Source of the DNA: Strigamia acuminata
Taxonomy: Eukaryota
NCBI GenBank assembly: GCA_949358305.1
Contig: OX442314.1
Location: 5,270,001-5,334,000, forward strand
Reading direction: 5' to 3'
DNA length: 64,000 nucleotides
Part shown: positions 13,509 through 61,183 of the stretch, piece by piece
How the letters are laid out: the number at the start of each line of letters is the position of its first letter
Numbering within the stretch: position 1 is the first letter of the stretch
Position numbers and translations under genes: made by a program
The notes under the pieces: generated by a model
Database searches by the model: none
Seen by the model: only the letters and a program-made list of their open reading frames with translations
Told to the model about the DNA's origin: nothing

Positions 13509-13887
13509 TTAACGACGATTTACGAAACAGACTCTGAACCAATTAAAAGTGTTTTGAATGCAAAAATAGAACGATAGTATTGACATTCCCAAACCTAATC
13601 CGAGAATGCTGCCGATATCGCTTAAGAATTGGGACATTGGATATTTCTGTTTCTCCTTTATGGTTTCGGTCAAACTATCAACTAATTGAAAGCCCGCAAA
13701 CGTGTAAAAAGTGATTGGTAACTTATTCCCACGAAAAATTGTTTGGTGAAACTTATTTTCGCAAGGCCGTTGACATTTGCAATGTTTTTGATTCGAGGCG
13801 TAGTTATTGAAGTACATTAGATGAGTGGTAGTAACATCTTTTGTAGTGTTGCAATCTGGTAAATTTGATGCTGTCATGTAAGGTAAT
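13509..13887 (-). CDS. Last exon (11) of the DEG/ENaC gene: thumb cysteines and TM2 of domain 2
   Basis: tttcag|A TTA CCT TAC ATG... reads LPYMTASNLPDC...CKCQRPC...SDIGSILGLGLGMS; stop at 13509-13511. Confidence 0.88.
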
Positions 13888-40800: not shown

Positions 40801-43800
40801 GAAAGTTCAACCGTAAATAATTCAAGTGAATTAAATAATCAAGAATTAGGAAATAATTCTGCTAATATGGAATTAGATCCCGAAGAAGTTACAACACCCG
40901 CTTCAAAAGAAAGCGACATCGTAGTTAATAATCCAAAACATGATTATAACCTTAGGAAAAGGAAAAGAAGTTGTGAACTTTCACAACTGCAACCTCGTAC
41001 GAAGCGAATTTCTACGACAGATCAAGAATGCACAACAGATTTTATACATCTGATTCAAGATCGCCGCTAGTGATAGCGTATTTTTTTAAATAAAAATTTA
41101 AAAAAAGATAAAAAATCGGGTCACTTTTTGACCCACAAATTAGTCATGGTTAAATCATAAACCTATAGGAGAATAGGGTGAAAATACCCCGGGTAGAGAG
41201 TAGAGGATTTGTTCTCTCACAAGCTTCACACACATGTGCGAGTCAACTTTGACACCTGCGTCGATAGAAAAGTTCGTCGCGATTTCTTTCAAGAAAACCT
41301 CGAGATTCGTGGTAAGACTCATGTATTACCAGTAAACTCGGAAAATTATGTGTCAGGACTTAATGTTATAATCCTTTCATGATAGAAAAGGACGAGAGAA
41401 AACTTCGGTGATTAATTTCGTCTGAAAGAGACGAACACGTGACCTCGGCGTGAAGAAGAAAATTTCTCCTTCGAGAAAATTCGAAATATCATCACGCCAG
41501 TTCAACGTTTACTAGAGTGTTACGTGTAAGTAATGATAAATTTAATATATCAAGAGATATTCACGGCTATTTTATATATAAAATTAGGATTTCTACGTTG
41601 GCGGAGAACACCTTCGCTAAAAACAACGAGTTTTGTCAATTAGAAAATCGGCACCACATCATTTTGAATACTTAAGTGGATTCCGGAGATTCCTAGTGTA
41701 AGTATTCTAAAGATAATTCTATCGAATATTACGAATAGTAAAAAAGCCGCACGTAAAATCCCGATATAAAAATATATCGAAACCATCGATAAAGTTGATA
41801 AATTTTCACGATAGATGGCGGTATAAATTTTGTTAAATAAATCGTATTGATAAGATTCTCTATATTATTTTCTCTAGAAAAAATGGGAAAAAAGATCGAA
41901 AAAAAGAGAAAATACGTGTTGGTCGAATCCTCTTCCTCCGATGAAGAAGTAACGGCACCTCCTTCGGCCGCTGCCGTATTCGTAGAAGGGTGTCCCAAAA
42001 CACCCGTGATTATCAACGCCAGAGGCTGGGATATTTTGAGTTGGGCTCGCCAACATCCCGAATTGCTCCCCGCTGAGCTTGGTCCACCCGGAACCCCCAC
42101 GTTACAGGAGGAACCGGCCAAAAAAGAATCAACGGCGAAGCCATTTGTTATTCCAAAGATAAAAGCGGATGATTTCGCCAGAAATAATCCGCCAATTGCA
42201 AAAAACCAGCCAAGTACCAGTAAACCGCGAAAGGTGGAAATTGTGTACAACCGAGTCAAGTCGCCCGAACGAAGAAGGAAATCCCCACCAATGGAAGCTA
42301 AACGCCGCCGAAATCCGGAAGACGCTACACCTTCCTCTTGTAATGGCCAAGAGCGTCCAAAAAGAGAATACGTTAGATTTAACGATTCACCAGACCGAGA
42401 CCGGGAAAAAAGGTCGTATTCCTCCTACCGAAGGTCCGACCGACCTAGGAATAGGTCAAATACCAGCGCATGGTCAGAGCGCCAAAAGTTGGCAAATAAA
42501 GTTCGTCAGATCCAGAAAAGACGAGAACAGTGTAAACAAGATAAAGAGAACGGAAAACCACATGATGATATGGTACTCTCGAAGGACGAAGTGCCATGTC
42601 CTTTTTGTTCCGCCGTCGGGTGGGTCTCGGGATCGGGAACCGGAGGCCACCTGGCGCAATGTTCCAATTGCGAGGGCACAAAGAAGCGGCCCAAAGGCCA
42701 ACCTTGGCGCCCCAGCTTTCTGCCGTTTGTGGTCATGGGAATTCACCCTCCCCCGGCCAGGTTGTGGGCAACTTGCCCGGAGTGTAAAATTGTCCTCTCC
42801 AGTGACGGAAGATCGCCGTACATCAGCCCGGAGTTCTTGAACGCCATAACCACTCCACTAGGAAGGGAAATGCAAGATCTGAGAATTCCGCCAGAAGCTC
42901 TAGAGAGTTCCCGAAAACCACAGAGTACGACAGTCATCGATAAAGGATGTCAAACGGTATCCAAGGAGAACGAAAAAGAAGCCGAAAATGAACTTCTTGT
43001 GGAACCCTTTTTCCCTCCACCAGGAGCGAAAATAGCGCATCTATTCGAATACGAGGTGAGCTACTATTTTCCGACGCTTTTTAGAATTGCCGAGAAAATC
43101 ACGGAACAAATGCGCTCAGACTCTACCGATCCCTCGAATATCAATTATGCTGTCCATGTGATGAAATTGATATTTAACGCCAATCGAGGCGAATCTTTTG
43201 CTGTGCTGGAGCACATATGGACACTGTTAATTGACAGAGTCAACACCGACGGAAAAGGATTAATAAACCCTTCATGGTTCTACGGACTCCCCTGCATTGC
43301 GGAGATATACGACGCTTCGAAGAAGGCTATTGAAGAAAGTTATGAGTTAGTTGAGAAGACTCCAGAATATGAACCAAGGTCTCCGGAGTACGCGCCGAAA
43401 TCTCCACCCGCAGAAGATATAGGTGAAGAACCCAATTTCGTCATCGACCGAAGACCAGCGGAATTTCTTCCCCTAGAAAAGTCCGAAGTCGGTGAGTCCA
43501 GTGAGACTCTTAAGAAAGAGAGTGAAGGATCGGAGTCTGATGAAGAAGAAGTCAAGTGACTCGCGGAGTTAATTTTCGAATTTAATAGAATTTAAGGAAA
43601 AAATGTTAGAATTAACGAAAAACTCAAAAGTATTCTGTTTAGTATTTAATAAGCGGTTGTGATATGCAAAAGTCATGTTATTTTTAAAAAAAGGAAAATC
43701 GAGAGATAATCCTATAAATCAAAAGAAATCTTTTAATAATTGTTAAGCTAAAAAGAAATAATTTACCAAAAAAATTATGTTAAGATTCCCGTTATTTGAA

Positions 43801-46800
43801 ATAATAATTGTGTGAAGAAATGAGGCTAAGTGTTGTAAAGTTCCAAGTTTGTTTTATTGTAACCAAATAATATTTTATTCTTGATAATTCATTAAAAAAG
43901 AATTGTTGCGCACATCAGAAATATGAAATTTATTTTGAGTCACCCGCATACGCACTCAGCTGTTCGGGATGAAAAAAGTCCTGTTTTGAGATATTAATAA
44001 AATCATTTCGCAAGAATAACATAAACTTATGAATAAAATTTATAAGTTGAGTAATTAAGGGGGATGTATGACGGTTTATAAGTGCTATTTATTAATAACA
44101 CGGCCGAATTTTAAGTGTTTTTTGCGAAACCCGCATTTGTCAATGCTCCGAGTCGCCACTAGATGGCGCGATTATAATTCAGCGGTAAATTCGAATTGCG
44201 AGTTAAGAAAACTGGTAAATAAATATAAGAATATATTTATTTATATGAAACGACACTTTATTAGGATTAATATAAATATATATTAATAATTATTGTTCAC
44301 ACTAAGTGATGGGAATCTCTAGTTCAGCAGAAATGGAGATTTGATAATCCATCGATCAACCGATCGATGTGATTGGTGGATCCATTTCCGGTCCTGGGTA
44401 TCCAGTTCCGGTTGTGGTGGGAATTAGCATATTGCTCCTCCGTATCCACTTCCGGCGATACGGGATTGGAGGGATTCGTGGAACCCATGTTCCAATTGGT
44501 TGATTGGATTAATCTCTAATCCAGTCAGGTTATATAAACCCAAACAACCGGCCATCCGGCGGCTCTGTTTGATTATTTCTGTTTGGTATTATTACTTAAG
44601 AAATATGATTCGTTGTCCATTAAAAAACCTTTTGGTTCTTTGTTGATTTATTCACAAAGAACCGCGGCATGATTCTACCGAATCATGCAACCACCGGCAA
44701 TTGAAGCCGACGTATTGGATTGTTATGTTGCATACATGTTTCAAGTTACGGTCTCGCCGAGGAGAACCTGCCTTCTGTGCAATTCAGTATCCTCCGGGCA
44801 GGATTAAGTGGTCATTTTCGGTATGAACGCATCTCGTAACCGCAAGTAAGCACCGGAACTGTTGAGAGTTGGTTCCTTCACCTGTTGGTGCAAAAGCAGT
44901 CTGTTTCACAGTAACCACGAGTAGCACCAAGTGTTTGGCAAGCTGATTCTCATGGTATTTGGTGCCAAAGCAGTCGTTTTGTTATTAGTACCGCGAAGGG
45001 CTAAACTGCTGTGCGGAGCCGCGAGCTATCGACTCCTGTGTACGTGATACCGTCAATCGCTAGACGAACGACCGTGTTGCGGCGCAGGGGACGCTTGATA
45101 CCGTTCTGCATGGCAAGGCGTTTTCTATCGATGGCAATTGTGTGTTGCGACGGGAAGTCTAACATTTATCCTTTACGTTTATAACAGAACAATATTAACT
45201 TGGCCACAAGTTAATTAATCAAAGTCAGGAAGACTTAAAAAACAAGAATACATTGAACTCAATGTGACAAATAAGTTGACGACAACTTATCGATGAAATA
45301 TCCAGTAGAAAAACTCACAACACTTATGAATTAAATATAATTCATAATTGGAATATTGATAAGTAAATGAATACATTTACTTACACCAATATCCTCCCAA
45401 AGTTGTGGCGGTGCAGACAAAGTCAACCGCAATGCTCAGATCATTCGATTTATCGACGTGCGATAATATTACACAGCGAACCAAGGAACCAGCGAAGCCG
45501 TATCGGACTCCAGGACACAGCCATCCGGCTTAGATGACATCTATAATCAGGTCGAGCGATGGGGAAACCGCTCCCATCTCCCAGACCCGTAATGATATTA
45601 TTTTAGGGCCAGTTGGCCAATTCTTTGTATAGTTTAATAGTTGATTTAACTTGCCAAATGTCGGCATTAGTCCTATGTATAATTTAGCTCATTTCATATT
45701 GTTTGCCAACAATAAACTGTCTTGTATTTATCTCGTATTGTATTCACTGTTTATTTATTGCGATCTCTTCCCGGTACCATTGTTAAATGGGAGTTGTGGT
45801 CGTCACCGTCACAAGATTTAATTGTTGTAAATTATCATTTGTTTGACGTTTTATCCAAGTTTGTAATGTTTGCGACACGTTATGCGCGTGTCATTCTATT
45901 ATTGTAAAAACTTTTTCTGAAGAGTAAAGACGTGTTTTTCTGTTCCGTTAACGTGTGATCTTTTAATTCGATTTGGACATTCGAAATACAACACATTCTT
46001 CAACGTGCTGAAAATGTTTCGAACGTTAGTCCTCGCGGCTTCCCTTTGTCTTCGGTTCTTCTCCAAATCTGCCATTGCAATCGATTTTCCTTGGTTTTCT
46101 TTTAAAAAGTCCCGGGTTTCGGCACCATATGTTGCGGCTGCAACTCGAATTGTAATATTGGACAAATAAAAGTTACTTTGAATTCTCGATGTTTCTGAAA
46201 TTGGGCTGATTCTTGAAGATGACAAATAAAGCACACGTTCACACGGATTTACATTTGACAGTAATTAATTTATTCAAAAACGGAAATAGGTAATGTTCTA
46301 TTCCCTACCCTTAACTGTAACAATAAATCATCCCAGTACAGAGTGGGTCACCGAAGTGACCCTCTGGTGGCCAAACATGGCGCCACCTACAATTCCCCCT
46401 AAATGTTGACTTCTACAGGAACTCCAGTTTCCACATAGATGCAATTGCTCAGGAAATATTTGGAGAGGACAAGACTTTTAGAACACTCTGTATATTGTTT
46501 AATTTGTTACCATAATTTCTCTAAGCATAACTTCATTTATCCATCCATAGATTAACGCCAATGGTTCCAGGATGTTAACTTCCTCTTCTTTATTATTCAG
46601 GAATAACTGAATAATATAAGATAATTAAAAATTATTTGCTAGCATATTGGATCACTTCCTGTAATTGATGAGTAATTTCAGACAAATCAGTCACAATTCA
46701 TTTGAGTACACCTAGGTTGGGCCACCTATAACCGGTACTATACAGCCTATTGTACTGGTTATAAGTGGCCCAAATAAAACAGGCCCAACAATAGTAATCC

Positions 46801-49800
46801 TCCTCATACTTGTAACGAGCTAGAATATTCTTGTTATTAAACAAATAATATTCCTTAACGTTGATGCCGCGACGGGACTTATCCTACATCTACAAAAACT
46901 AATTCTACTAAAATACTTAACTAATTCAATCTTTAAGCTGTGGGAGAAATATTCAATAAATATCAAATATTTCTCAAAACAAATACAATTAGATTTATTC
47001 TATTTTGGTGAATAAACTCAATTAAACTTACAAAAAGAAGATAAAATACATATTAAAATTACGAAGAAAAGATAAAATACATATTAAAATTACGAAGAAA
47101 AGATAAAATACATATTAAAATTATAAGAAAAGATAGTGAAAGAAGAAATAATACGAAAATGGCGTTGTTCACGATAACTTGTCGCTTGACGACGAAATGG
47201 CGGCGATGGGTTGGTGCTCGCTCTTGAATCTCGTTCTTCACTCGACGCTCGATCCGAATCTCGAAACAGCGTCGTCCCTCGCTCGACGACAAGGACGACA
47301 ATTTTAACGAAAACAACAACGACTTTGACGAAAAAAGCGAAATAAATCGAGATGCGAGTCCAGACGAATTTGATGCAAGTCCAGACGATACAAATCGAGG
47401 GAATTGGATGCGCAACCGAACAAACTTGACGTAAACAACAAATTGGACGAACTCTTGCCGTACAGAGAAGCGCGACACAAGAAATTCAAGAACGAAGAGG
47501 AGAACGATGGAGATGGAGCCGAAGGAGACAGGACGAATACCAAAGCATTTAACACAAATCTTAGTGCAAAATTGGAAGAGAAAATTGATACGGGATCGAA
47601 CGGCGATGGAGGGATGAGAAACAGACAACTAGGGAACAGAAGTCGAGGGAGGAATAAAATGACGAGCAGCGATACGACAAAGACGCGAACGAAAGAGAAG
47701 GAAATGGCTGTGATTCGATCCACGAGAGGCGTAGAGGCAGGGCCGTCTTTACAGTTCTCAGCGCCCTGGGCTAATAAAACTCAGGCGCCCCTTGCCCAGC
47801 ACTTTTCTGTGCCCGACGCCCTTCTGTGCCCATCGAGCCCCTGTGCCCGGCGCCCCCCTGTGCCCCGGCGCCCCTGGGCTGCAGCCCAGTTAGCCAATGG
47901 TAAAGGTGGGCCTGCATAGAGGATCGAGAGACGGACCACGAGGATAACACGAGTTACGAGGATAATACGAGATATGAGAAAAGCGATAGAAGTGATACGA
48001 AATACAACGAGTGCTGGACTGGCCTGTCGGGCTACCGGGAGTTTCCTGGTGGCCCGTGGCCTCTGTGCTTTGTCGCGGCCCTCTGTGGCCTGTCCCGACT
48101 TCATTAATTGTGGCCCGGACACCCAGCATTCCCGGCAATAAATTTGTTCCCCGTCCAGCCCTGAATATAACAAAGACGACGAGAGCAATGCGAAATACGA
48201 GAACGATGCAAACTTGAGGGAAGACAACCCAAATCGTGAGTTGAAAAACGCACGAAGAGGAGCGATTCGAAATTGGCGCGCGAGACTCAAACCAACTAGA
48301 CGGAAGAAATAAGCGTTCGATACAATGTCGGGAACAGAGGACGAAGTGTCGGCTAGGGCGCCGACATTTAGTCTAATGACCGAGTGTGGAGTTTGTCGAG
48401 TTCGAGACAGACGTGTTACGTCGCCAGAGGGCGCTTGGACGTAACAAGCGCATTATCAAAACGTCCGATAGACGTTTATTGGCAACAGTCAATAGGAGCA
48501 AGCGATTGTTGTATTTAAACCAGTTGAATTGAAATAAAGAATCACTTTGATTTGAACTGAACATGCGTGTGTGTCGCAGACGAGCGGATCTGCCATTTTA
48601 TTTCGAAGTCAGCTAACAATTAGTTTTGATAGTTTACATTACCTTCATATCATGGTGGCATACGTCTGAAGGTTGTAAGAATTCAAATGCAAACGCCAGA
48701 TCAACTATAAGGTTATGTGTTTTTTCTGGAAAACATTGGAAAGATCACAGTCAATTTTCATAAGTTTCAGCTACTGTATGTCTAGAGTGCAATTTTAATT
48801 AACTTACAGTCAAAACTCTTTATATCGAATCGCGATACAAAGAATACCTAAAAATGGCTGGTTTGGTTGACTGGCCATAGAACACCATGTTAAAAAATTT
48901 CGATATAACCAATTCTCGTTATAATGAATCGATTTTTCGGGTCTCTTGCGATTCGTTATAAAGAGTTTTGACTGTAAGCTTATAGTCAAGTAACTGCTGT
49001 AGTTGTAAGAAAAGTTGAAGGTGTATGACGGCATAAAGCTGAAGGCATAAAGCTGAAGGCATAATACCAAAGGGATGTTGAAATCATTTAGTGTGAATGT
49101 GCTGTAACTATTGGGTGGCCCACATAAAACCGGCACGACAATATGTAAGAATGCCAAAACAATGTGTCAGTAACAGCTCACAACTGCTCTCTGTTCTGCC
49201 CTTTTTATTGCTCACTGCTTAATGATATACAGGTATACCATTCAAATCTCATGTTTACTATTGCATCTGAGCATAGATCTTGCAATCCTCAAAAACTCTG
49301 TAACTATTGTTTATTGTGTTATCCAATTTTGAAATTTATACTTTTAATCTAATTCTGTTTTAAATCTTATTTTCTTTGTCAAATCTCACAGCCTCCCCTT
49401 CTTAAATAGAAATTTAAAATTTTTTTCTGAGTTATCTGAGTTTGCAAAATCTAGCATTTAATGTAATACTAACAACATTCCATAATTTATACAATAAAAT
49501 TTCAATTGTAAGTTTTTATTTTAACAGTACTTGTAGGTGCATTCAATATCGATAAGGAGAAGTGACTTCTCTTTAAGTTGATTAAATAAGTCATTTGAAA
49601 GAAGTGACTTATGTTTGAACGCGCTTATTATTTTACCTAAGTGTTTGGCTTCTATCCAGCAGTGTTGGGCACGGTACAGTAACGGTACCGGCAGTACAGT
49701 AACGCCGGTACCGTTACTATACCGGAGGCCTGTACCGCGGTACTTTTTAAGAAAGCATCATGTACCGTTACTGGTACCGCGTTACTTTTTATGGGAACAG

Positions 49801-52800
49801 CAAGTACCGGGTACTTTCGCCGCCATGCAGTACCGGTACCGGGATTTTGCGGTACGCGAGAAAACACGAGATTCTCGTGTTTTCTCCCGTTTTCCACGAT
49901 AATAAAGTTAAAAAGTGTATGTTTTGCTGCAAATTCAATACCCCGGATTGGCTACTACAACAAGCATGCGTAATCCAAATAAACAGTCGTTTGAATTTTA
50001 ATGAAAATTGGAAATTTAAAATTAGACTCATTCAAATTGAGTGCGCAAAGTAAAGTGCGGCGACGCCGAAGCCTGCCCGTCTCACACGAGATACGCGAGT
50101 AATAATTCCCGGCGTATTGAATTTGCAGCAAAACATACACTTTTTAAGTTTATTATCGTGGAAAACGGGAGAACGAGAATCTCGTGTTTTCTCGCGTTTT
50201 CTCGAGTACCGCGAGATGTACCGCAAAATCCCGGTATCGCTACTGTACCGGGACCGCGGTACTTTTTTAGGACGCAGCAAGTACCGCGTACCGGTACCGC
50301 GTTACTCTTGGCGGACGCAGCAAGTACCGCGTACCGGTACCGCGTTACATTTCTCCTTTGGCGCAAGTACCGGTAACGGTACCGCGGTACGTGTTGGAAG
50401 TACCGTGCCCAACACTGCTATCCAGTTGTGACGAGTTCTGAGCATGCTCAGAACAAGTATTGCAAATGGCTGCCAAACCAAGATGCAAAAGATCAACGCA
50501 ATGTGGCCTAAAACAAAAAAAATATGTGCTCAAAAATTCTAAAAACCACATGCATCTCTTTTTCTTGTGTTAATTAGAAGTTCATGGAAGTTTTAAAATT
50601 TTAGAGCACACATTTTTTTTGTTTTAGGCAACATTGCGATGAGCGAATTAGATCGGAAAAGAATGCGGCCAAAAAGGTCTAATTACATTTCTAATGGCGA
50701 AATGGAAGAAATTATAAATTATAAATTATAAATAATAGTGAGTTTGCGGTTGCCAATTGTTCCTTATAATTATCAGTTACAAGCTCATAATTATAAAAAT
50801 GGACTTATAACATAACGTAACTCCTCAACTTTTACACTATTTTGTAAAATAAGGGAGCCAATCAGATCGCTTAACACTATTGGAAGCTCCTCTCACTATT
50901 GCAAATGGCGCTGATGGTGCTAATGGAAATTCAAAATGGCTGCCTGACCTGTTTCAACATTCAGCCTCAATCACAATTTCTTTCTGCCATCGAAGGATAT
51001 AAACAACTAAAATCATTCCAGGTAAGCAAATAAATAAACTGGAAGACAATTTCATGTATGAAAACTGTCAAATTAGTAAAACTACAGATTTTCATTTTCT
51101 TTTGCATAGGGATTTGTTCTACCATTACATGGTATTGTATAAGTATAATTTATAAAATATATTTATTGTACCGCAAGTGCCTATTTCAAGAAGGAATTAT
51201 AATTATAATTATGAGCTTGTAACTCATATTATAAGGAACAATTGGCAACCGCAAACTCACTAATGTCGCGCTAGATGTGCGCATCTAGCGCGACATTATT
51301 TACCGAGACATGAATCTTCCGCAACAAGCCGTCCTGAAAAATGGTTTTGCATAAAAAAACCAGTAAGGTTAGTTTTGCGGGGGGTCAAGGGGGGGCGCAG
51401 CCCCCCCCCCCCTTGTTAGGGCCTTCTTAGGAATTGGAAGAAGAAATACCCAAAATACAAGTTCCAAAGTCGCGCTAGATGACACGCCCACAGATTCGCC
51501 ATTGGAAACGCAAATAACGTTTCCAATAGCAAATTTCAATATACACGTTTCCAACGGCGAATTTCCGAGATTCGCCATTGGAAACGTCAAAATAGCTTTC
51601 CAATGGCGAATTTTGGACGATTCGCCGTTGGAACGGGTACCCCTTCTACTCTCACAGTTTTTACTGGCCTTTAATCTTACTTTTTCTGGGTACTCGTAGA
51701 ACTAAGCTTGTAAGGAGAACTGAATTCAAGTTTATATGTATATTTATTCGTGCTTACGAACGTATACCTGTATTGATTTGTGTACAATGTCCAAAAGGAA
51801 GGGGAATCAGACTTTTTGATGCATTCAGAATTGTTTTATATCCACGAAAATACTATAAATATCAAATAATTTAATCTAATATTTCACCCATGGTTATATT
51901 TAAGAAACATACCTTATCAGCTATTTCATAATTAAGTGTGACTGTTTCATGGACGTTGAGTTTTTCCCAGATTTCTTCCAATGATAAATTGTTGTTGAAC
52001 AATTGCCAGGGTGATATGTTATTGCAGGTCTTGTTAGTTTGATTCATTAAGTTCAACTTGGTTTTATCAATTTCACCATCTTGTGGTTCACCACAGACCG
52101 TCACAGACGGATATTGGGTAAAGCGTCGTTGAACTACGAGTACTGTTTTTGTTATCGGTTCTTCAATGTAGTAGTTCAAACGAATTTTCAAGCAATACAA
52201 AGTGAATCCAGTGCATATTATAACCAGAATTGTCTTAAGATCAAGTGAAATTACATTTCTTTGTTGACTCACAATTATATTTTTTGTGAATTTGTCATAA
52301 ACACGGCGAATCTTATTAACCGTTTTTTTTTTCCGAATGTTTGTTAGATACCATGCGATTTCAGGCAACGAGGTTAAAGATAGACCGAGAAATAGGCCCA
52401 GATTGCCTCCTAAATCTGATAGTAAAGCAATAACATCATATGTGTACCGTTCTTCATACACGGTGATTTTATCATTGGTTGCTAACGATGCAGATATGGT
52501 GTTTTTATCATCTGCTATGCCCGCGTCGGCGTATGTTATAAACATTAACTGTTCACATGGACGTCGACACAGACAATCAGCAATTGGGTCGGTAGTTTCA
52601 ATTAAACGATTTGCAATACCATATAGTTCATGGGTGGTATTTGAACATTCACAGAGTGGTAAATCTGTCTTTGTAAAGGGTAATCTGGCAAAGATGATGT
52701 TTCATTTATTTATATTTTTATTTTAGTTGTATTTGTGTATTGTGCATCTTACCTGCATAACACACATATTTTTAATTTTTTAAGTAAGCATTCACGATAA

Positions 52801-53879
52801 CATTCTTTGTATTCCTTTTCACTGGAGCATGAACTCATAGATGAATTAAGAAATATGAACTAAAATGTAACAAGTAATAACATAATTAGTTGCTAATTTC
52901 CATTTACAGTAACATTTAAAAATTTACTTTGTTAAAACTCAACTTTATTTTTAACGCTTCACCAATCATTTGTGTTGTTACATACTGGTTTCTTCCAAAA
53001 TCGTAGAATGACATGTAAAACTACGTGGGTGAAAATAGGAATGAATAAGAAAAATTTCATTGTCTGATATATTGCAAATAATTTAGTACGATTACTTGGT
53101 AAGGAGCTGTAGGACATACGTAGTCATAAGTTTTTTCGATAGTTGCTGTAAATAATTCTTGATGAAATGATTTACTATAAGCTACAGTTATACCAAAAAT
53201 AATAATTGTATTATCAATGAGACGGGTGGTTTTTGTTTAGTTACAGAATTGAAATGTTGAGCACATTCCATATGATGTGTCAGTTTCCGTGAGAACAAGT
53301 GTTTTGTTTGAAAATTCCTGAACATGTTAAATTATGATTTCTTATTTAAAAAATAATTTCTACTACATTTACCTTCATTTTAATGCTGACTATCTCTTTG
53401 CTCAAATTTGTTGCTCTCCATAGTTCATCCATATTGTAAGTTGGAATTGCCATCAGATTTTTTACCATGTTTGCACATTCATATTGGATTGAACCGAAAT
53501 CAATTGGTCCAGTAGTCTTGATGTTCTCATAAGTTTTATTCCAAAGCCTGGCCATTTCTTTCGTGTTGCCACTGCAGATCATCAAATTTGGTAACTCAAT
53601 ATCTTCCGATTTGGTCGTTACGTCAACAGCCGTAGGATAACTTAAGTAATGCATTACTCTACCGTATGTCTGATAAGTGAGCAAGCATGTGCAAAACAGG
53701 AGCAAAATTAGCCAAAGTCTATGACGTGTGCTCCAATGTTTTCTACTGTTTACGAAATCATCCAGACCAATTAAACCGCAGTTTGGTTTGTTGGCATCAT
53801 CTTTTATGACGCGTTGAATTTCTGAACGTAGTTTTCTTAATCTTCCCATATTTCTTCCCATCAAGTAATTGTTCTGCAT
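13509..53879 (-). CDS. Tandem two-domain DEG/ENaC (pickpocket-like) channel, 796 aa, 11 exons: 53879-53373, 53317-53245, 53181-53096, 53020-52928, 52859-52753, 52684-51913, 51852-51768, 48725-48643, 46606-46511, 15161-15052, 13887-13509
   Basis: Exons join with GT..AG and consistent phases (2391 nt, open). Domain 1: TM1 RLWLILLLFCTCLLTYQ, YLSYPT..LPNLMIC, TSYGMCSTF, CLCRRPC, TM2 LLSDLGGNLGLFLGLS. Domain 2: TM1 TILVIICTGFTLYCL, YPSVTVC, PFGHCTQIN, CKCQRPC, TM2 FLSDIGSILGLGLGMS. Start codon assumed to be the first ATG of ORF 53346..53879. Confidence 0.85.
13986..14737. mobile_element. hAT-type MITE with internal ~31-bp minisatellite
   Basis: Ends TAGGGTTTCTC / GAGAAACCTA; perfect 8-bp TSD GTTTGGAT (13978-13985, 14738-14745); subterminal ACCGGTA motifs. 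Confidence 0.85.
14821..15045. mobile_element. Small TA-flanked MITE (Tc1/mariner-type), ~34-bp TIR
   Basis: tatactcaaaaccactccaaggttgatgtatttc ... gaaatacatcaaccttggagtggttttgagtata; ends about 5 nt from the exon-10 splice donor. Confidence 0.75.
15052..15161 (-). CDS. Exon 10 of the DEG/ENaC gene (Cys-rich thumb)
   Basis: aaacag|TIQRNTKRNPCEDNKTTYLMCKNACIQNNLFRSMNCR|gtatac; parallels domain-1 exon 5. Confidence 0.85.
15938..16243 (-). repeat. BEL/Pao 3' LTR
   Basis: Near-identical to 46130-46435; preceded on the minus strand by a polypurine tract. Confidence 0.95.
16250..17386 (-). pseudogene. pol: BEL/Pao integrase segment
   Basis: HHCC (HERTMHGG..CVLC), GVDFAGP, YSDNAKTF, APWWGGFWERMV. 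An in-frame TGA at 16324-16326 precedes the typical RRPIQRLCPLE end. Separated from the rest of pol by the DD41D insertion. Confidence 0.9.
17387..20259 (-). mobile_element. Tc1/mariner DD41D (rosa/Visitor-type) DNA transposon with ~300-bp TIRs
   Basis: TA|CAGGGTGGAACAAAAGTCTG ... CAGACTTTTGTTCCACCCTG|TA. Removing it restores the BEL frame (NNYITKLIITEEH). Confidence 0.95.
17775..18848 (-). pseudogene. DD41D transposase (357 codons) with one nonsense codon
   Basis: WSDEAQF, YQHDGAPPH, WPPRSPDLTPLDFFL with 41 residues between the second and third Asp. The conserved Trp codon is TAG at 17961-17963; the frame continues GHVKDVVY... to TAA at 17775. Confidence 0.9.
20262..23769 (-). pseudogene. 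pol: BEL/Pao gag C-terminal part, protease, RT and RNase H
   Basis: CTFCQKEEH..C / CYRCLKEGH..C / CKKCEKNHH..C, FLDGGSQRTF, ADIEKAF, RVPFG, YVDD, FCDASPRAYG, NPADLLTRG; in-frame TGA at 20429-20431. Confidence 0.92.
23775..24076 (+). mobile_element. Solo LTR (302 bp), probably BEL-family, inserted antisense into the BEL gag
   Basis: TG..CA ends; perfect 5-bp TSD CCGTG (23770-23774, 24077-24081); excision restores SGLTVTDENY. First 12 nt TGTGGAAACTGG match the start of the host BEL LTR; AATAAA inside. Confidence 0.85.
24082..24562 (-). pseudogene. gag: BEL/Pao gag segment (continues the N-terminus at 46075-45994)
   Basis: MKLPKLEIVKFKGTPETWTQF*GDF..VHNN..KFVYLRS motif typical of BEL gag; joins MADLEKNRRQR..TLKN across the Copia insertion. 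Confidence 0.85.
24754..24771 (+). promoter_or_regulatory. Copia primer-binding site, initiator tRNA-Met
   Basis: TGGTAGCAGAGGgTGGTT, complementary to the 3' end of animal tRNAi-Met with one G:U pair, 2 nt after the LTR. Confidence 0.85.
24885..28985 (+). CDS. Copia gag-pol polyprotein (1366 aa)
   Basis: CYECGKSGHIAKNC knuckle, WILDSGASAHM protease, WHKRLCH/HADLIGP/RSDNGGEF integrase, KARLVAVG/YVDDIL RT, FADAS..TKHI..ADFLTK RNase H. IN-before-RT order defines Copia. Confidence 0.97.
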   Translation: MADSISGGSLNRIELLKPNNYFIWQFKVKTLLAAKSLTKMITEPAEVKPNQGDADYANKLVKYDEWAKKNNEALGIIILTMSDEEAANCMNMTEAKAVWDALKALYAGATEEQQIDAATELAELRMKNDENVDSYLNRAKSIQARSKAVGRDVKNRELMLFVTRGLLQKHEHIARNFRTNATATIEELRRALKLEEQHSIFRTRGPAMENTTMAFRAQVGKNSGGKKLKGGIKIVCYECGKSGHIAKNCWQRYPEKRPAQAAQRTKETAKIAQVEEATIQHALIVDLENEDHIDDWILDSGASAHMSSKRGLFSSFVEMETIVTTAKKGVKLISTGKGNVILNCQLDGGQTMKILLMDVLFIPELKGNLMSVPRLTAKNYGIFFKGNWADIKSPNGETIAKGIRDGNMYLLQLTKEEQVNAVTTTTKESKELWHKRLCHMSEQTMDKMTKKEMVHGLEYVDAQLEKCTACILGKMTRSPYKKIKEKQSNEILQLVHADLIGPIQVSSLAGSKYALIMTEDFTRKKFVYFLKEKSQTFEFFKTFKAMTEKQTGQKLKKFRSDNGGEFVNANFKHFFNEEGIIHELTVPFNPSSNGISERTNRTLVEATRTLLLESGLPLSFWAEALATSVYVKNRSLTKPNGDLVPEEMWTKRKQAINFLRNFGCEAFLHVPAEKRQKLDQKAKHGIFIGYSVDRKAYRVYVPDDKKVQEGRTVIFNEKIRGADIFSLNEKNEKRRFCQEIEDEIIVAEPNVDDNNQQPAVAVEDEPQPEQQAEQQLDQPARVGRPVGSTKAVLEQRHAEQLELREQQLQQEGVRRSQRIAAQHEAVNAAVEAADELLVDEFFTPETFDQAMNCADKERWKEAMNSEIDSLHVNNVWTLVKREKKMATIKSKWIFRIKLNADRSVNKYKARLVAVGYSQRAGIDFTETFSPVVRLESLRIILSMVAKHKLFTRQFDIKTAYLYGLIDETIFMEQPEGYVQEDFVCKLERSLYGLRQSGRCWNQRLDEELTKIGLTPLINDRCVYVYKKRNDYLILGVYVDDILAAFTRPKILDRIMRRLKRVFEVIDMGEVHFLLGMEISITEAGVFIGQQKYISEILVKYDLLDGIVASTPMATGQDLNDFENSKKVDQQLYQQILGSLMHVMVVTRPDLSFAISALSTYARDPRQVHFRAAKRVLRYLKKTRETRLFFPSEDGNLQGFADASWCSTQEAKSYTGIIVKIGLSTISWKTKKQRLVAMSSTESEILAICELLKSIKWARDFLYEVGEGSSVQRSVPIYTDSSPAIQVLCGANQFGRTKHINRHLMFIKDELKLGNIKLIHLPSTEMIADFLTKAVAKDKFTEGRKGVSLKDEGKMNEIEEEEKNEDK
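29080..30826 (+). repeat. Gypsy 5' LTR
   Basis: TATGACGG ... CCGTCACA; TATA-like TATATAAA near 29544; AATAAA near 30724. Confidence 0.95.
30829..30846 (+). promoter_or_regulatory. Gypsy primer-binding site, tRNA-Gln
   Basis: TGGAGGTCCCACCGAGAT, complementary to the 3' end of animal tRNA-Gln (..AUCUCGGUGGGACCUCCA). Confidence 0.85.
31656..33992 (+). CDS. gag: Gypsy Gag (778 aa)
   Basis: LPVFDG..YLSGLAQQWY..WETFVELFREEF capsid-like region; CFHCKQPGHFKREC knuckle. Confidence 0.93.
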   Translation: MDPNNLPNEEKVAEEKAVEEIVSLDSSYVKLCDQTEMIPDELTQFCTHYELDRTQFKTIIEASEFVTKRALRNIRINPTPEKRAELSKESSANHNSGKDPIPSPRDLSEENRSRSKTPQRKLGDQARIKTPSVRNQDIRELFRTSSKESLDQSSLGNRTPHSRNASYHNTPSISEVGGSNFSTFQPENAKKQPNPHIYTENGTRHFAKQTPRGRGNKSAIRRKLSPLPSPVLPQTRQEQLRLDEVEKERIRLEATNQKQINDEKIRQDKLEKEVVNQNEVRKSIDKNDKILIDQLRAQWRQEHDEKFQKQQDQYNKKWAEVNRIEDNQRKREKTLQESIRLNLAASTRASHGSEPRDQTNPSRASTDDIPSSHSSAESSTGTRLPSDGTNISFDYILKMQQNMAAQFQKQLDSRIDTFVQTQQTTGPQRSNNPGPSKVFFKGQDLPVFDGKQEDIDKFLSVAKTVAISKGLTLDEMVNQGIPTYLSGLAQQWYDENKTKFTNWETFVELFREEFDMIPTTRLRNLRKVIQGDDEPLYEFLVRFTKAQGSYSERGNVATLFDNLNWTSYNRLIDRNLYRSDSVDKIFQFVRTNRALFEPQRIRTENSKEIDKVVSNNQKYSKDTKNTRPSARSTQMMEIEPEEEIMEVNELTENNVSMDNLLCAMSENQTGKCFHCKQPGHFKRECPLLPKRKFSNNFPGNNNSNNNSANQQPNEFKRPRQNWVTAEAIDQKMEELKTDMNNSMQTTISKTVSDLFSKFLDPKNATTAPITETPPVPKN
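33983..34014 (+). promoter_or_regulatory. Putative -1 programmed ribosomal frameshift signal (A AAA AAC + GC-rich stem-loop)
   Basis: Slippery heptamer immediately before the gag TAG, a 7-nt spacer, then GGGGGTC..GAGCCCCC. pol lies in the -1 frame and has no ATG at its start. Confidence 0.8.
33992..38284 (+). CDS. pol: Gypsy Pol (PR-RT-RNaseH-IN, ~1430 aa), intact
   Basis: LMDSGATQC, RLCIDYR, MPFGLCNAP, YLDD, TDAS, HGHPLSGH..CIHC, IDLMG, SDNGSQF, NPTER. Confidence 0.96.
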   Translation: MAGVLEPPINNSEGILPPDLEQALSETLDNLTIQDKEIKRARPNRKTRKRNWNYKFKIASNTPFSAEETANPFLNFHDDLFSLDKGDESLARLIQDTSNLNIRDESTSSSGGVFENLQSMIDNLNPDSKSSRFARLKSYINENQLKRKDGIERINKLGNHIDDPRMKITIGGLTYNALMDSGATQCFIGLQLLSKTCASPDFIQDCPKHMRVCAVGVTHIPLGQITLCVQWADGAEFTPINFIILDNNVCGLIIGHNFMRRTKINLNPARAVFTCDSKSDWTAPYETDELNCNLARVQVLTDNATATHTPDNWEELLVKDCDCSDEEKSKLREVIASVKNVFRDKVGCTNIIKHKITFKKDVTWKKQPFRMYNPAKIAIMTKLVEELEADNLIERATGPYISHPVIVAKPNGTYRLCIDYRWLNAITEINAIQMPSIDLLLHNTNQAKYFTSLDLTKGYYQVEMDEEDRQKTAFYTPKGNYQFVRMPFGLCNAPCTFQFLMERVMGEALYKHALVYLDDVIIFSTTWEKHLEHIKDVLERLDKANLSVNKEKSKFGKTTLKFLGHLITPTGLAPDPDKIVSVRKYPTPKNSKDIQRFHGLSNFFRKFIPEHAKIARPLTSMMHDKAVFEWGEEQEKAFETIKNILCDETQVLLMPDMMKPFVILTDASHDGLGSVLCQDVEFFDEGKREMIMTPRPVAYASRVLRGAEVRYSTPELECLAVVWAVDKFRPYIEYTTFTLESDAEALKWLMGTPEPSGRFGRWAIKLQCGAFKIKYRRGTQNQVADAFSRAPLEIEDIPENDYCEPIEITQFWPEWDGNREIIRRNNREDCQFLTNVQLHFDYSKLLYNTLEKGEKMDEATEETLFSALTEVLKEVPPTREEIIKAQLADKECRIIIDHLKRAEIEQRKFKKTKEWMKAVQGYQLDFQEENGNEMLIYFKPTFEEELNDSGNGFKAVIPPSLVRRVLFACHGHPLSGHAGMSKTLERAKLIYYWPKMNKDTRNYVRSCIHCQQYKPCQHKKHRASYTPHNMSYPWEVICIDLMGPKPTGRSQYRFVLVIIDQCTKWVELFPLSKASSESIVNRLGEVIHRWGYPKKIVSDNGSQFISTIYEEFCKKHNIRMAHVSPYHAQANPTERANRDIKIMLALYSDIHSHWPRFLNEFAFASRTAKSEATGATPFLLNTGRNVPLPFDPRIIQHANAFDKNNPEEYVYNLLGILRRAHQEMHLRIQANYERHDKIHRNKFHICEYTVGDLVWKATHILSNKEKGITKGFAEKRDGPWEITEVLPGGAYKLRKLVDGSIEPSINTDDLSPYIPSYPIETWTLDQKSGRIENHPNPDWMNESSTVNNSSELNNQELGNNSANMELDPEEVTTPASKESDIVVNNPKHDYNLRKRKRSCELSQLQPRTKRISTTDQECTTDFIHLIQDRR
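36361..41932 (+). repeat. Tandem duplication, 2 x 2786 bp (36361-39146 and 39147-41932)
   Basis: Constant 2786-nt offset between duplicated ORFs; junction gaatcctc|gcctttggag; one substitution seen (36696 C vs 39482 A). Confidence 0.93.
39097..41070 (+). CDS. Chimeric ORF: ORF3 N-terminus fused in frame to a complete second integrase (657 aa)
   Basis: MGKKIEKKRKYVLVES followed by SPLEIEDIPEND... matching the pol C-terminus, including HHCC and DDE. Confidence 0.8.
   Translation: MGKKIEKKRKYVLVESSPLEIEDIPENDYCEPIEITQFWPEWDGNREIIRRNNREDCQFLTNVQLHFDYSKLLYNTLEKGEKMDEATEETLFSALTEVLKEVPPTREEIIKAQLADKECRIIIDHLKRDEIEQRKFKKTKEWMKAVQGYQLDFQEENGNEMLIYFKPTFEEELNDSGNGFKAVIPPSLVRRVLFACHGHPLSGHAGMSKTLERAKLIYYWPKMNKDTRNYVRSCIHCQQYKPCQHKKHRASYTPHNMSYPWEVICIDLMGPKPTGRSQYRFVLVIIDQCTKWVELFPLSKASSESIVNRLGEVIHRWGYPKKIVSDNGSQFISTIYEEFCKKHNIRMAHVSPYHAQANPTERANRDIKIMLALYSDIHSHWPRFLNEFAFASRTAKSEATGATPFLLNTGRNVPLPFDPRIIQHANAFDKNNPEEYVYNLLGILRRAHQEMHLRIQANYERHDKIHRNKFHICEYTVGDLVWKATHILSNKEKGITKGFAEKRDGPWEITEVLPGGAYKLRKLVDGSIEPSINTDDLSPYIPSYPIETWTLDQKSGRIENHPNPDWMNESSTVNNSSELNNQELGNNSANMELDPEEVTTPASKESDIVVNNPKHDYNLRKRKRSCELSQLQPRTKRISTTDQECTTDFIHLIQDRR
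41883..43559 (+). CDS. Gypsy ORF3, non-env accessory protein of unknown function (558 aa)
   Basis: Long open ORF between pol and the 3' LTR; basic N-terminus, R/S-rich region, CPFC-x17-CSNC, CPEC, acidic tail; no signal peptide or TM segment visible. Confidence 0.85.
   Translation: MGKKIEKKRKYVLVESSSSDEEVTAPPSAAAVFVEGCPKTPVIINARGWDILSWARQHPELLPAELGPPGTPTLQEEPAKKESTAKPFVIPKIKADDFARNNPPIAKNQPSTSKPRKVEIVYNRVKSPERRRKSPPMEAKRRRNPEDATPSSCNGQERPKREYVRFNDSPDRDREKRSYSSYRRSDRPRNRSNTSAWSERQKLANKVRQIQKRREQCKQDKENGKPHDDMVLSKDEVPCPFCSAVGWVSGSGTGGHLAQCSNCEGTKKRPKGQPWRPSFLPFVVMGIHPPPARLWATCPECKIVLSSDGRSPYISPEFLNAITTPLGREMQDLRIPPEALESSRKPQSTTVIDKGCQTVSKENEKEAENELLVEPFFPPPGAKIAHLFEYEVSYYFPTLFRIAEKITEQMRSDSTDPSNINYAVHVMKLIFNANRGESFAVLEHIWTLLIDRVNTDGKGLINPSWFYGLPCIAEIYDASKKAIEESYELVEKTPEYEPRSPEYAPKSPPAEDIGEEPNFVIDRRPAEFLPLEKSEVGESSETLKKESEGSESDEEEVK
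44067..45813 (+). repeat. Gypsy 3' LTR
   Basis: Copy of 29080-30826; followed by the TSD AGAT and the remainder of the Copia LTR. Confidence 0.95.
46110..46127 (-). promoter_or_regulatory. BEL primer-binding site, tRNA-Phe
   Basis: TGGTGCCGAAACCCGGGA, complementary to the 3' end of animal tRNA-Phe, 2 nt from the 5' LTR. Confidence 0.85.
46130..46435 (-). repeat. BEL/Pao 5' LTR
   Basis: Near-identical to 15938-16243; adjacent to the PBS. Confidence 0.95.
46511..46606 (-). CDS. Exon 9 of the DEG/ENaC gene
   Basis: attcag|LFLNNKEEEVNILEPLALIYGWINEVMLREIM|gtaaca; 96 nt, phase 0-0, parallels domain-1 exon 4 (93 nt). Confidence 0.75.
47738..47914. mobile_element. Small GC-rich hAT-type MITE
   Basis: CAGGGCCGTCTTTA / TAAAGGTGGGCCTG; 8-bp TSD cgtagagg/catagagg (7/8). 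Confidence 0.7.
48009..48163. mobile_element. Small hAT-type MITE
   Basis: gagtgctggactgg / cccgtccagccctg imperfect TIR; 8-bp TSD aatacaac/aatataac (7/8). Confidence 0.6.
48643..48725 (-). CDS. Exon 8 of the DEG/ENaC gene
   Basis: ttccag|(E)KTHNLIVDLAFAFEFLQPSDVCHHDMK|gtaatg; 83 nt, phase 1-0, parallels domain-1 exon 3 (86 nt). Confidence 0.7.
48807..48974. mobile_element. pogo/Tigger-like MITE
   Basis: TA|CAGTCAAAACTCTTTATA ... TATAAAGAGTTTTGACTG|TA. Confidence 0.85.
49660..50417. mobile_element. hAT-type MITE with GTACCG subterminal repeats
   Basis: TIR CAGTGTTGGGCACGGTAC / GTACCGTGCCCAACACTG; perfect 8-bp TSD CTATCCAG. Confidence 0.92.
50737..51261. mobile_element. MITE with ~60-bp TIRs (possibly PIF/Harbinger-type, AAT TSD)
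   Basis: aat|AGTGAGTTTGCGGTTGCCAATTGTTCCTTATAAT ... ATTATAAGGAACAATTGGCAACCGCAAACTCACT|aat; a TA-TSD reading is also possible. Confidence 0.75.
51768..53879 (-). CDS. Exons 1-7 of the DEG/ENaC gene (entire domain 1 and start of domain 2)
   Basis: ORFs 53346..53879 and 51871..52545 plus short exons separated by introns of 55-75 nt. Confidence 0.88.
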
Positions 53880-55742: not shown

Positions 55743-56742
55743 TGTCACGGCCCGGCATTTACGCGCTTTGTAATCCTCACCTAATTGTTGTGTTGTGCGC
55801 GTTATTCCGTGTGTTTTCCACCATTGTTAAAACTCCCAATAAATCCCTAAACCTATTTGTGTTTGAATTTGAGTTTTGATTTGTCCTCATTTCCTATTCA
55901 TGTTTATTCCTTGACCTGGCCTGGTGTGGCTCAATTTGGCTACATCAGACTAGTCTAAGTCAGGTATTTCCCACTGTTACCCCTCCTGATTTCGTTTAGT
56001 TTATCCTACCTAATTTAAATGTTTAGTCACTCGCGACTGACTCATCGCGATGATTATTCACGAGCGCGCCTGATTGGCCCACGCGTGCTTGACTCATGGT
56101 TCTCCCCTTGTTTTCTGTGATAGACTTGGCCCAAGTTCACTTCTGAGCGTTTTCAGCCAAGTCCGATCAGAAGGCATCAGACCATGAGCTATCGTAAGTG
56201 CCTTAACTGGCCGTTGTGCATTTGGCAGTCTCTCCTGTGTTAACTCACAGTATAACTCCATGCCACGTAATTGTGCATGTTTGAGTATATTCATGGTCAT
56301 ATCGCGTGCTTAATCCCGCGTCTCACCTTTGAATTCCTTTCCCTTCGTTGATCTTTTGTGTTTACACGACGTTTTATGCCGCTGACGTGCCTCTGGACTA
56401 GAAGTTTGATTCGAGTAGCTAGCGAGTTATTATTTCGTCTTTTGTGCGCGATCCGCGCGCGCTTGCTCGGTCTGGCCACTCCGCCTCCAGGAGTCCCATC
56501 CAGATTAGCATTAGCCACGCTAGCGTTGTTTAGTCCGCGCGTGTGCATCATCTTCTATTTTTACGATTCCAACAAACCCGGTAAAATTTGTGAAATGATC
56601 GAATAGGGGAATAAGCTTGCCGCCACCCTCCAGGCTGCTTATTGTTGCCCGGGCCCTTATTCGGGACCAGGCTCTCCCAGTATCGTAACTGGCGCGCCTT
56701 TCAAACGCGGTTTCAATCATCCGAAACAACCGGTTCATGACA
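55743..56742 (+). repeat. 5' LTR of the RT-less Gypsy
   Basis: TGTCACGG ... CATGACA, followed by cg + TGGTGCCGAAACCCGGGA. Confidence 0.95.
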
Positions 56743-56958
56743 CGTGGTGCCGAAACCCGGGACCTTGTTGGAATTTTTTCAGTCTCGTTGCGCATATAAA
56801 CTGCTTGCTATCTAACAAAGCATCAGTGGCGTTTTTAGAGATTTTGCCAAAGGGAAGGTTTCGAAGTTTGTATAACTTATCATATTTTTTTGCGTGTTGT
56901 TTAAATACAACGCGTTTTATTTGCATTGAGTTGCTAGTGCCCTTATTATCTTGTTAAG

Positions 56959-60633: not shown

Positions 60634-61183
60634 GTGCCTTCTTTTTCTACTTTTAAAGTGTTTTTTGTAATATTAATCCGTTGTTTAGCATAGTTTCGAT
60701 TTTTAGCTGAGTTTTGATGTTCGTGAATTTTGTTTATTGGAATGAGTGTGTTCGTTGGTTTTTTGGTGTCTTTTATAACATTTTTACTGATTGTTGTCGT
60801 TTGTCAGCGTTTCGACGGAGATGCGGGGTTAAAACTCCATTCTTTTCCTGTCGGGATGTTTACGCGACTTTGTTTTCATTAATTTGAATTTAGTGTTTAT
60901 TTGTCTCTGTAGTGAGTAGTAGTCGCGAGCATTGAGATCTCTATGCGAGTGATTGATGCAATTAGTGCATTTGTGCCTGGCGCTCGGGCTAGTAGTTTAG
61001 TTTTTGTTTTCGGCGCTTAACGCTTGTATTGTTGAGTCTACGCGATGAGTCTCGCGCCTCATTAGTGTTTGATTTTTGTTTTTGATCATTCCAACAGTGT
61101 CATTTGATTTGATTTCTTGTATCGCATTTTACTTTCGTTTTCAGATTTTGAACAGAGATTAAAACACTCTGGTCCGAGGGGTG

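What the first reader, a model, noticed from the sequence alone, without database searches (positions are those of the whole stretch)
51913..52684. Natural tandem-dimer DEG/ENaC channel: two subunits in one polypeptide
Seen: within a single 772-nt exon, TM2 of one DEG/ENaC subunit (LLSDLGGNLGLFLGLS) is followed, with no stop and no intron, by a ~37-aa basic linker and then TM1 plus the YPSVTVC motif of a second, highly diverged subunit, which is completed by exons 7-11. Known: DEG/ENaC/ASIC/pickpocket subunits have two TM helices and assemble as trimers. Inference: a 4-TM, 796-aa genetically encoded heterodimer that would fix two of three positions and need a third partner (2+1), leave one domain out, be proteolytically split, or form a non-trimeric assembly. 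The GxS filter is kept in both halves (GLS, GMS); the N-terminal HG motif is altered (GLIGL) in domain 1 and absent in domain 2. I cannot check whether such fusions are already reported in this lineage.
Basis: partly seen in the sequence, partly recalled or inferred. Interest (0 to 1): 0.88.

Follow-up and report, generated by a model that had tools for sequence, protein, structure and literature searches.

The report
Two-in-one centipede sodium-channel subunit
A gene, likely from a centipede, joins two different DEG/ENaC sodium-channel subunits in one unbroken reading frame, as many related centipede gene models also do; because these channels are trimers, the pair likely takes in one separate subunit to form a pore of fixed, lopsided make-up.

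Summary
Observation confirmed. Eleven GT-AG exons give an open 796-aa frame with four hydrophobic segments. The 772-nt exon 6 runs from TM2 of one DEG/ENaC subunit through a 37-aa basic linker into TM1 of a second, only 18% identical one. It is not a one-off: 16 named Strigamia maritima proteins carry such a junction, and paralogue contigs in three runs keep the linker in frame. First and second halves each form their own clade and share five intron phases, so this is an old duplicate-and-fuse event. A predicted paralogue model gives two full folds that match the centipede channels PDPNaC1 and BRTNaC1 (Z 20.5, 21.6). The second half has mostly lost the gate glycine (kept in 1 of 8, against 23 of 23). 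Best reading: a hard-wired heterodimer completed by a third subunit (about 55%; structural support weak). There is no transcript evidence. Decapod proteins with three subunits in one chain also turned up. I found neither in ten paper searches nor in earlier scan notes.

The parts
53373..53879 (-). Exon 1: ATG, N-terminus with GLIGL in place of HG, TM1 of subunit 1 (aa 55-73), LPNLMIC
   Evidence: (ASC 40.5 bits)
53245..53317 (-). Exon 2 (73 nt), YGMCSTF motif of subunit 1
53096..53181 (-). Exon 3 (86 nt); donor chosen by match to P0001
52928..53020 (-). Exon 4 (93 nt)
52753..52859 (-). Exon 5 (107 nt), cysteine-rich thumb of subunit 1
   Evidence: P0005 has the matching stretch
51913..52684 (-). 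Exon 6 (772 nt), the fusion exon: last exon of subunit 1 joined to first exon of subunit 2
   Evidence: (ASC, 2 stretches)
52351..52434 (-). TM2 of subunit 1, pore motif DLGGNLGLFLGLS
52240..52350 (-). 37-codon basic linker, inferred cytoplasmic
   Evidence: in-frame 9-nt insertion in paralogue contigs
52093..52239 (-). TM1 of subunit 2 through YPSVTVC
51768..51852 (-). Exon 7 (85 nt), FGHCTQI motif of subunit 2
48643..48725 (-). Exon 8 (83 nt)
   Evidence: matches P0001 and P0007 by BLASTP
46511..46606 (-). Exon 9 (96 nt)
15938..46435 (.). Young BEL/Pao-type LTR element with nested copia-type, gypsy-order and inverted-repeat elements, filling intron 9; 306-nt LTRs 98.7% identical, TAGAT target duplication; 846 nt of intron remain without it
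15052..15161 (-). Exon 10 (110 nt), thumb of subunit 2
   Evidence: P0007 is co-linear across this junction
13509..13887 (-). Exon 11: CKCQRPC, TM2 of subunit 2 (DIGSILGLGLGMS, 13619-13581), stop
   Evidence: (ASC 32.1 bits)

Best explanation
The gene encodes two divergent DEG/ENaC subunits joined head to tail in one 796-aa, four-helix reading frame, which likely folds as two neighbouring subunits of a trimeric cation channel and is likely completed by a third, separately encoded subunit (2+1). Shown: the open frame, both domains, the family-wide junction, position-specific clades and the position-specific pore motif. Inferred: an ancestral six-exon gene duplicated in tandem, and the last exon of copy 1 fused with the first exon of copy 2; the basic linker lies in the cytoplasm. 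Inferred: the fusion fixes one subunit-2 helix, with Ser or Asn at the gate glycine, per pore, and leaves the third seat open to the lineage's single subunits, which would give a combinatorial family of likely sensory channels. The stimulus is unknown; protons or heat are leads from the centipede relatives only.
For: Open 796-aa model, all introns GT-AG. The five introns of each half have the same phases (0,1,0,0,2); 3 of 5 sit in identical alignment columns, one within 2 residues, one 9 residues off. TM2-to-TM1 junction in 37 of 153 proteins examined. Of these, 16 are named S. maritima, 13 in this family and 3 in a separate clade; 10 similar ones were not looked up. Complete two-subunit architecture ending soon after the second TM2 in P0009 and P0014; P0030 has it with a longer tail. 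All 28 linkers measured are basic (+3 to +11; 23-57 aa), longer than the 19-aa linkers of functional engineered ASIC trimers (PMC10329638, passages; those also keep native tails). Paralogue contigs bridge TM2 to TM1, and all 11 gapped pieces among the 24 listed have 9-nt gaps. Tree: 8 first halves form one clade (94/97), 8 second halves another (97/97); holding this gene's halves together is rejected (AU p 0.0003). AlphaFold2 model of paralogue P0014: pLDDT 79, pTM 0.72; residues 51-375 match PDPNaC1 (Z 20.5, rmsd 3.1, 311 aligned) and 423-772 match BRTNaC1 (Z 21.6, rmsd 3.8, 322 aligned). Gate glycine kept in 23 of 23 first halves, 1 of 8 second halves and 38 of 42 scored singles. Complete-looking single subunits exist in S. 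maritima (P0023, P0025). P0014(62-760) with P0025(54-352): ipSAE 0.58 against best control 0.11, 63% contact agreement, partner pLDDT 71. The tool rates this weak support (passes at 0.60 or under were 5 of 78 solved complexes and all 4 passing mismatches), and like trimers are solved, so it may come from memory.
Against: No transcript, protein or current was seen. All homologue evidence for this family is from gene models of one species plus genomic contigs; I could not see S. maritima DNA to confirm the junction is one exon there. Linker sequence shows no purifying selection: of 21 listed single-letter differences, 4 are synonymous (21% expected by chance), against 11 of 19 in the flanks, and 0 stops among them is not significant (about 1 expected; only 40 of 88 rows were shown). 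One X3 contig has a 5-nt insertion at 52168. An engineered ASIC1a dimer gave currents without an added partner, with cleavage-size by-products (PMC4529235, passages), so a separate third subunit is not obligatory. The complex test used a paralogue and an arbitrarily chosen partner, without alignments or the outer helices, and cannot tell a monomer from a domain of another chain. The gate-glycine counts are from related sequences, so not independent. The tree has many long branches and the first-half clade is just short of the star mark. Intron 9 holds 30.5 kb of young elements, which could disable this copy.
Confidence: 0.55

Rival explanations
1. The tandem protein is self-sufficient: the third seat is filled by a domain of another tandem chain, whose other domain dangles or enters a second pore, so that three chains build two tethered trimers.
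For: An engineered ASIC1a dimer conducted without an added partner (PMC4529235, passages). Linkers of 23-57 aa are long enough to leave a trimer. Among the best S. maritima-type hits, junction-bearing proteins are numerous, though the query selects for them.
Against: It needs unpaired transmembrane domains or a geometry for which I know no precedent in this family (recalled). Single subunits are available in the lineage. No two-chain model could be run (1000-residue limit).
Confidence: 0.23
2. The chain is a polyprotein or read-through form: the halves end up separate (cleavage in the basic linker, internal poly(A) or internal start) and work as ordinary subunits made in a 1:1 ratio.
For: The linker is Lys/Arg-rich and its sequence drifts at a near-neutral rate. 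Engineered concatemers yield lower-order products.
Against: The linker has no Met in this gene. It is inferred cytoplasmic, away from luminal convertases (established knowledge). No conserved cleavage motif is visible in the alignment. Frame is kept across paralogues.
Confidence: 0.09
3. The family is real, but this copy is silenced or mis-spliced by the 30.5-kb nested insertion in intron 9, giving at most a three-helix product.
For: LTR pairs are 98.7-100% identical, so the insertions are recent; a further LTR-bounded element lies 1.9 kb upstream of the ATG.
Against: All 11 exons are open with canonical splice sites; the insertion is 75 nt from the donor and leaves both splice sites intact.
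Confidence: 0.08
4. Two tandem chains form a four-subunit pore with two-fold symmetry, breaking the trimer rule.
For: Two does not divide three; a cross-linking study argued for ASIC1a tetramers (PMC4529235, abstract and passages).
Against: The closest solved relatives are three-chain entries (BRTNaC1, PDPNaC1). Three-domain chains in decapods fit a trimer. A third subunit docks weakly on the predicted dimer.
Confidence: 0.05

Closest known systems
Centipede DEG/ENaC channels BRTNaC1 (PDB 8YMR/8YMW; PMC9974506) and PDPNaC1 (PDB 9JF7; PMC12714832)
   Same: Best sequence and fold matches for both halves; compact ectodomain; PDPNaC1 also lacks a canonical HG motif; same D-x-x-G-x-x-G-x-x-x-G-x-S spacing in TM2 of the first half.
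   Different: They are 421-431-aa two-TM monomers with three chains per entry. Here two subunits share one chain, identity is only about 20%, and the second half has Ser at the position of PDPNaC1's lower-gate Gly375 (mapped by motif spacing).
Engineered ASIC concatemers (PMC10329638, PMC4529235)
   Same: Head-to-tail TM2-linker-TM1 fusion that fixes subunit composition; shown to give working channels.
   Different: They are laboratory constructs of near-identical subunits. This one is natural, old, 18% identical between halves and expanded into a family.
Heterotrimeric ENaC and insect pickpocket heteromers
   Same: Mixed-subunit pore with unequal pore-lining helices (ENaC trimers listed; function recalled).
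   Different: Their subunits come from separate genes.
Naturally fused repeats in other channel families (K2P, TPC, Nav/Cav; recalled, no call)
   Same: Internal duplication that hard-wires an asymmetric pore.
   Different: There the repeat number divides a four-fold pore (2 or 4 of 4); here two repeats do not divide a three-fold pore.

Membership tests
DEG/ENaC (Pfam ASC PF00858) | ASC profile match above the curated cut-off | tested here: met
   Exon 1 40.5, exon 6 46.4, exon 11 32.1 bits against 23.6; the second half of exon 6 alone is 18.1 bits
DEG/ENaC (Pfam ASC PF00858) | Each subunit has TM1, a large cysteine-rich ectodomain and TM2 | tested here: met
   Four hydrophobic segments and two thumb cysteine sets; architecture 1-2-1-2
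DEG/ENaC (Pfam ASC PF00858) | One subunit (two TM helices) per polypeptide | tested here: not met
   Two subunits in one frame; this is the departure reported
DEG/ENaC (Pfam ASC PF00858) | ASIC-like fold in each half | tested here: met
   On the predicted model of paralogue P0014, not of the window protein: Z 20.5 (51-375) and 21.6 (423-772)
DEG/ENaC (Pfam ASC PF00858) | GxS tract in TM2 | tested here: met
   GLS at aa 389, GMS at aa 771; family: 22 of 23 first halves, 5 of 8 second halves
DEG/ENaC (Pfam ASC PF00858) | Pre-TM1 HG motif | tested here: not met
   GLIGL in half 1, nothing like it in the linker; functional PDPNaC1 also lacks it
DEG/ENaC (Pfam ASC PF00858) | Trimeric assembly | tested here: inconclusive
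   Weak pass, 0.58 against 0.11, on a paralogue; may reflect likeness to solved trimers
DEG/ENaC (Pfam ASC PF00858) | Voltage-independent cation current | not testable with these tools
   Needs electrophysiology
BRTNaC1 / PDPNaC1 orthologues | Orthology and heat or proton gating | not tested
   About 20% identity in structural alignments; their sequences were not in my trees

The most novel reading that the evidence does not exclude
Arthropods have repeatedly evolved natural DEG/ENaC concatemers. In Strigamia-type centipedes a large family of fixed heterodimers leaves one seat of the trimer open to interchangeable single subunits (or tethers pores in pairs), while decapods and a second Strigamia clade encode a whole three-subunit channel in one chain. 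This would be the trimeric counterpart of the fused-repeat Nav/Cav and K2P channels.
Probability: 0.7. Interest if true: 0.88.

Novelty: new variant of a known kind. Interest (0 to 1): 0.8.

Why it matters
DEG/ENaC subunits are described as two-helix monomers, and their stoichiometry has had to be forced with engineered concatemers. A natural two-in-one chain poses a symmetry problem (two into three) that can be tested directly. It supplies evolved, position-specific pore helices for studying asymmetric gating, and it reveals a large candidate sensory-channel family that sits in databases as 'uncharacterized protein'. The three-in-one decapod proteins would be complete channels from one gene, and so simple expression and cryo-EM targets. 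Family surveys that expect two helices, or treat multi-domain hits as merged gene models, would miss or split them.

Tried and rejected
No whole genome is held for the window, so in-genome paralogues and partner genes could not be listed. No RNA holder was listed among the four runs; this is no evidence either way, and X4 gave no laid contig. A profile search with alignment A2 returned only its first sequence among 7988 scored candidates, so the range beyond S. maritima is untested, not negative. Single-sequence folding of P0014 failed (pLDDT 32.6) and was not used. My 788-aa model was replaced by the 796-aa one; searches used the 788-aa version, which differs by 8 residues in the first ectodomain. 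In the first tree the halves of P0009 grouped together through P0102, which looks like a first-half/second-half chimera from skipped exons. I left P0102 and other rows out, using 41 of 109 domain rows, chosen. Four single-domain rows (P0026, P0045, P0039, P0102) were left out of the singles count, and 8 of 50 singles had no scorable motif. P0018's junction overlaps in my HMMs (gap -14) and is doubtful. A hidden third domain in the window was rejected: only two TM2-type motifs exist in 64 kb, and stops bound both ends. P0001's extra N-terminal 172 aa nearly repeat its own residues and look like a model or assembly artefact. Contig depth was not used as copy number. The Fisher test is not cited because the rows are related. 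Literature: searches gave no listing that describes a natural fused DEG/ENaC. Term searches in PMC5203786, PMC8438182, PMC9974506 and PMC10507113 found no relevant 'fused' or 'tandem' passage, and PMC4244043 has no ENaC mention in its main text. No supplements were read, and the Vizueta et al. 2020 survey of S. maritima DEG/ENaCs was not held; either may mention multi-domain models. Earlier scan notes: no match by sequence or place.

Full report
1. Observation. The minus strand carries an 11-exon gene from 53879 to 13509. All ten introns are GT-AG and the spliced frame is 796 aa with no internal stop. Exon 6 (52684-51913, 772 nt) encodes the end of one thumb domain, TM2 (DLGGNLGLFLGLS), a 37-aa basic linker, a new hydrophobic segment and YPSVTVC without a stop. 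Hydropathy gives four segments. Pfam ASC passes its cut-off on exons 1, 6 (two stretches) and 11; the second half of exon 6 alone falls below it (18.1 bits). Taken alone the open linker is weak evidence: 2.5% of shuffles, but 23% of equal-length intron stretches, are stop-free.

2. It is a family trait. The exon-6 protein finds four Strigamia maritima proteins at 51-62% identity, and all four run through the same junction. This is also the basis for inferring that the window comes from a related centipede. A full HMMER search gave 173 hits, of which 150 were listed. Small TM1 and TM2 profiles found a TM2-to-TM1 junction in 37 of 153 sequences. Of these, 16 are named S. maritima, 10 similar ones were not looked up, 10 belong to other arthropods or unnamed contigs, and one is my model. 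P0009, P0014 and P0030 hold both complete subunits at only 23-25% identity to the window protein. All 28 linkers measured are basic and 23-57 aa long. Three sequencing runs laid 591, 607 and 514 contigs on 2.4 kb, mostly 85-99% alike, which points to many paralogues. Several single contigs bridge TM2 and TM1, and the 11 gapped pieces among 24 listed all carry 9-nt gaps. Against this: linker substitutions look neutral (4 of 21 synonymous, against 11 of 19 in the flanks), one contig has a 5-nt insertion near TM1, and the S. maritima rows are unverified gene models.

3. Origin. The halves are 17.8% identical over 315 columns, yet each has five introns with phases 0,1,0,0,2. Three sit in identical alignment columns, one within two residues and one nine residues off. 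Exon 6 is therefore the last exon of one six-exon gene joined to the first exon of its duplicate (inference). In a 41-row tree, eight first halves form one clade (94/97) and eight second halves another (97/97); grouping this gene's halves together is rejected (AU p 0.0003; long branches, rows chosen). The fusion thus predates the family's expansion, and the two positions have stayed distinct since. Two long linkers (P0017, P0032) keep a PG-containing pre-TM1 stretch like that of single subunits, as expected if the linker is old C-tail plus old N-tail.

4. Structure. The spliced window protein could not be folded, so paralogue P0014 was folded with a 73-row alignment: pLDDT 79, pTM 0.72, four long helices and a low-confidence linker. 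Residues 51-375 align to PDPNaC1 (Z 20.5) and 423-772 to BRTNaC1 (Z 21.6), ahead of the best ASIC1 rows (Z about 15). Both halves are thus predicted whole subunits. In TM2, the position matching PDPNaC1's lower-gate Gly375 (PMC12714832, passages; mapped by motif spacing) is Gly in 23 of 23 first halves but Ser or Asn in 7 of 8 second halves, Ser in this gene. The rows are related, so this may be one ancestral change that was kept.

5. Mechanism. The closest solved relatives are trimers, so a two-subunit chain leaves one seat. My best reading (0.55) is that a separately encoded subunit fills it. The fusion would guarantee one gate-variant helix per pore, and single subunits exist in the lineage. 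A docking test of P0014 with the single subunit P0025 scored 0.58 against a best control of 0.11 (63% contact agreement, partner pLDDT 71). The tool rates this weak, it may reflect memory of solved trimers, and it cannot identify the partner. Rivals are a self-sufficient form with dangling domains or tethered pore pairs (0.23; an engineered ASIC1a dimer conducts alone, PMC4529235), separation of the halves (0.09), a copy disabled by insertions (0.08) and a four-subunit pore (0.05). That the gene family encodes intact two-subunit chains I put at about 0.9. A sensory role is inferred from the antennal relatives BRTNaC1 and PDPNaC1 (PMC9974506, passages; PMC12714832, abstract, introduction and first results section) and from the lineage-specific expansion, as proposed for mite ENaCs (PMC5203786, passages).

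6. The long intron. Intron 9 is 31,349 nt. Of this, 30,498 nt is one LTR element (306-nt LTRs, 98.7% identical, TAGAT duplication) with Pao, copia and other retroelement domains nested inside. Without it 846 nt remain, and P0007 is co-linear across the junction, so the exon 9-10 join is credible. Whether this allele splices is untested.

7. Wider context. The same search returned three-subunit chains: Halocaridina rubra (P0042, P0061), Palaemon carinicauda (P0093), Eriocheir sinensis (P0118), a cluster holding a Penaeus vannamei protein (P0100, P0158), and 1001-1272-aa proteins on contigs of only 3.4-4.7 kb, which leaves almost no room for introns. Their domains group largely by position and apart from the centipede ones, which suggests an independent fusion. 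S. maritima P0008 and P0010 overlap like parts of a further three-subunit chain.

8. Novelty and verdict. Each half meets the DEG/ENaC tests that could be run, except the HG motif; the one-subunit-per-chain rule is not met. Ten paper searches and term searches within PMC5203786, PMC8438182, PMC9974506, PMC7067487, PMC4244043 and PMC10507113 showed no report of natural fused DEG/ENaC subunits. The library lacks most subscription papers, one relevant survey was not held, and no supplements were read. Earlier scan notes hold only tandem but separate genes and one merged gene model. Verdict: real, a new variant of a known channel family, interest 0.8. The assembly state and expression remain open.

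Noticed in passing
P0042, P0061, P0078, P0129, P0053, P0056, P0062, P0086, P0093, P0100/P0158, P0118, P0149: Three DEG/ENaC subunits in one chain (1001-1289 aa), named members all decapod crustaceans; several are single ORFs on 3.4-4.7-kb contigs. The roughly 1000-1045-aa group appears to have a shortened middle domain. Candidate single-chain trimeric channels; worth their own follow-up.
   Followed up: partly
P0008, P0010, P0012, P0028: A second Strigamia clade with closely similar repeated domains; P0010 (1-2-1-2-1) and P0008 (2-1-2-1-2) overlap like parts of a three-subunit chain, fused independently of the window's family.
   Followed up: partly
P0021: Polypedilum vanderplanki 1460-aa model with three similar ASC domains; may be a true fusion or three tandem genes merged by annotation.
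   Followed up: no
window 15938-46435: Nest of young elements in intron 9: BEL/Pao type outside, a copia-type element (24572-45993, 180-nt repeats 100% identical, open 1367-aa frame), an element with 1750-nt LTRs (29077-45813) and a 2787-nt internal tandem duplication (36360-41932).
   Followed up: partly
window 17382-20264: Element with 304-nt inverted repeats (97%) and a 322-aa ORF with helix-turn-helix hits, probably a Tc1/mariner-type transposon (label recalled).
   Followed up: partly
window 55743-62183: LTR-bounded element (1000-nt repeats, 99.6%, GTAC duplication) 1.9 kb upstream of the ATG; its 1039-aa ORF had no Pfam hit at 1e-5.
   Followed up: partly
window 4445-5047, minus strand: Gly/His/Tyr-rich ORF with a hydrophobic stretch and no Pfam hit at 1e-5; resembles arthropod cuticle proteins (recalled).
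   Followed up: no
P0001 residues 1-172: Near-exact repeat of the protein's own later residues; likely an assembly or gene-model artefact in UniProt T1JEH2.
   Followed up: partly
P0039: S. maritima model with one second-half-type subunit preceded by a thumb fragment but no first TM2; probably a broken model of a tandem gene, but a free second-half subunit is not excluded.
   Followed up: no
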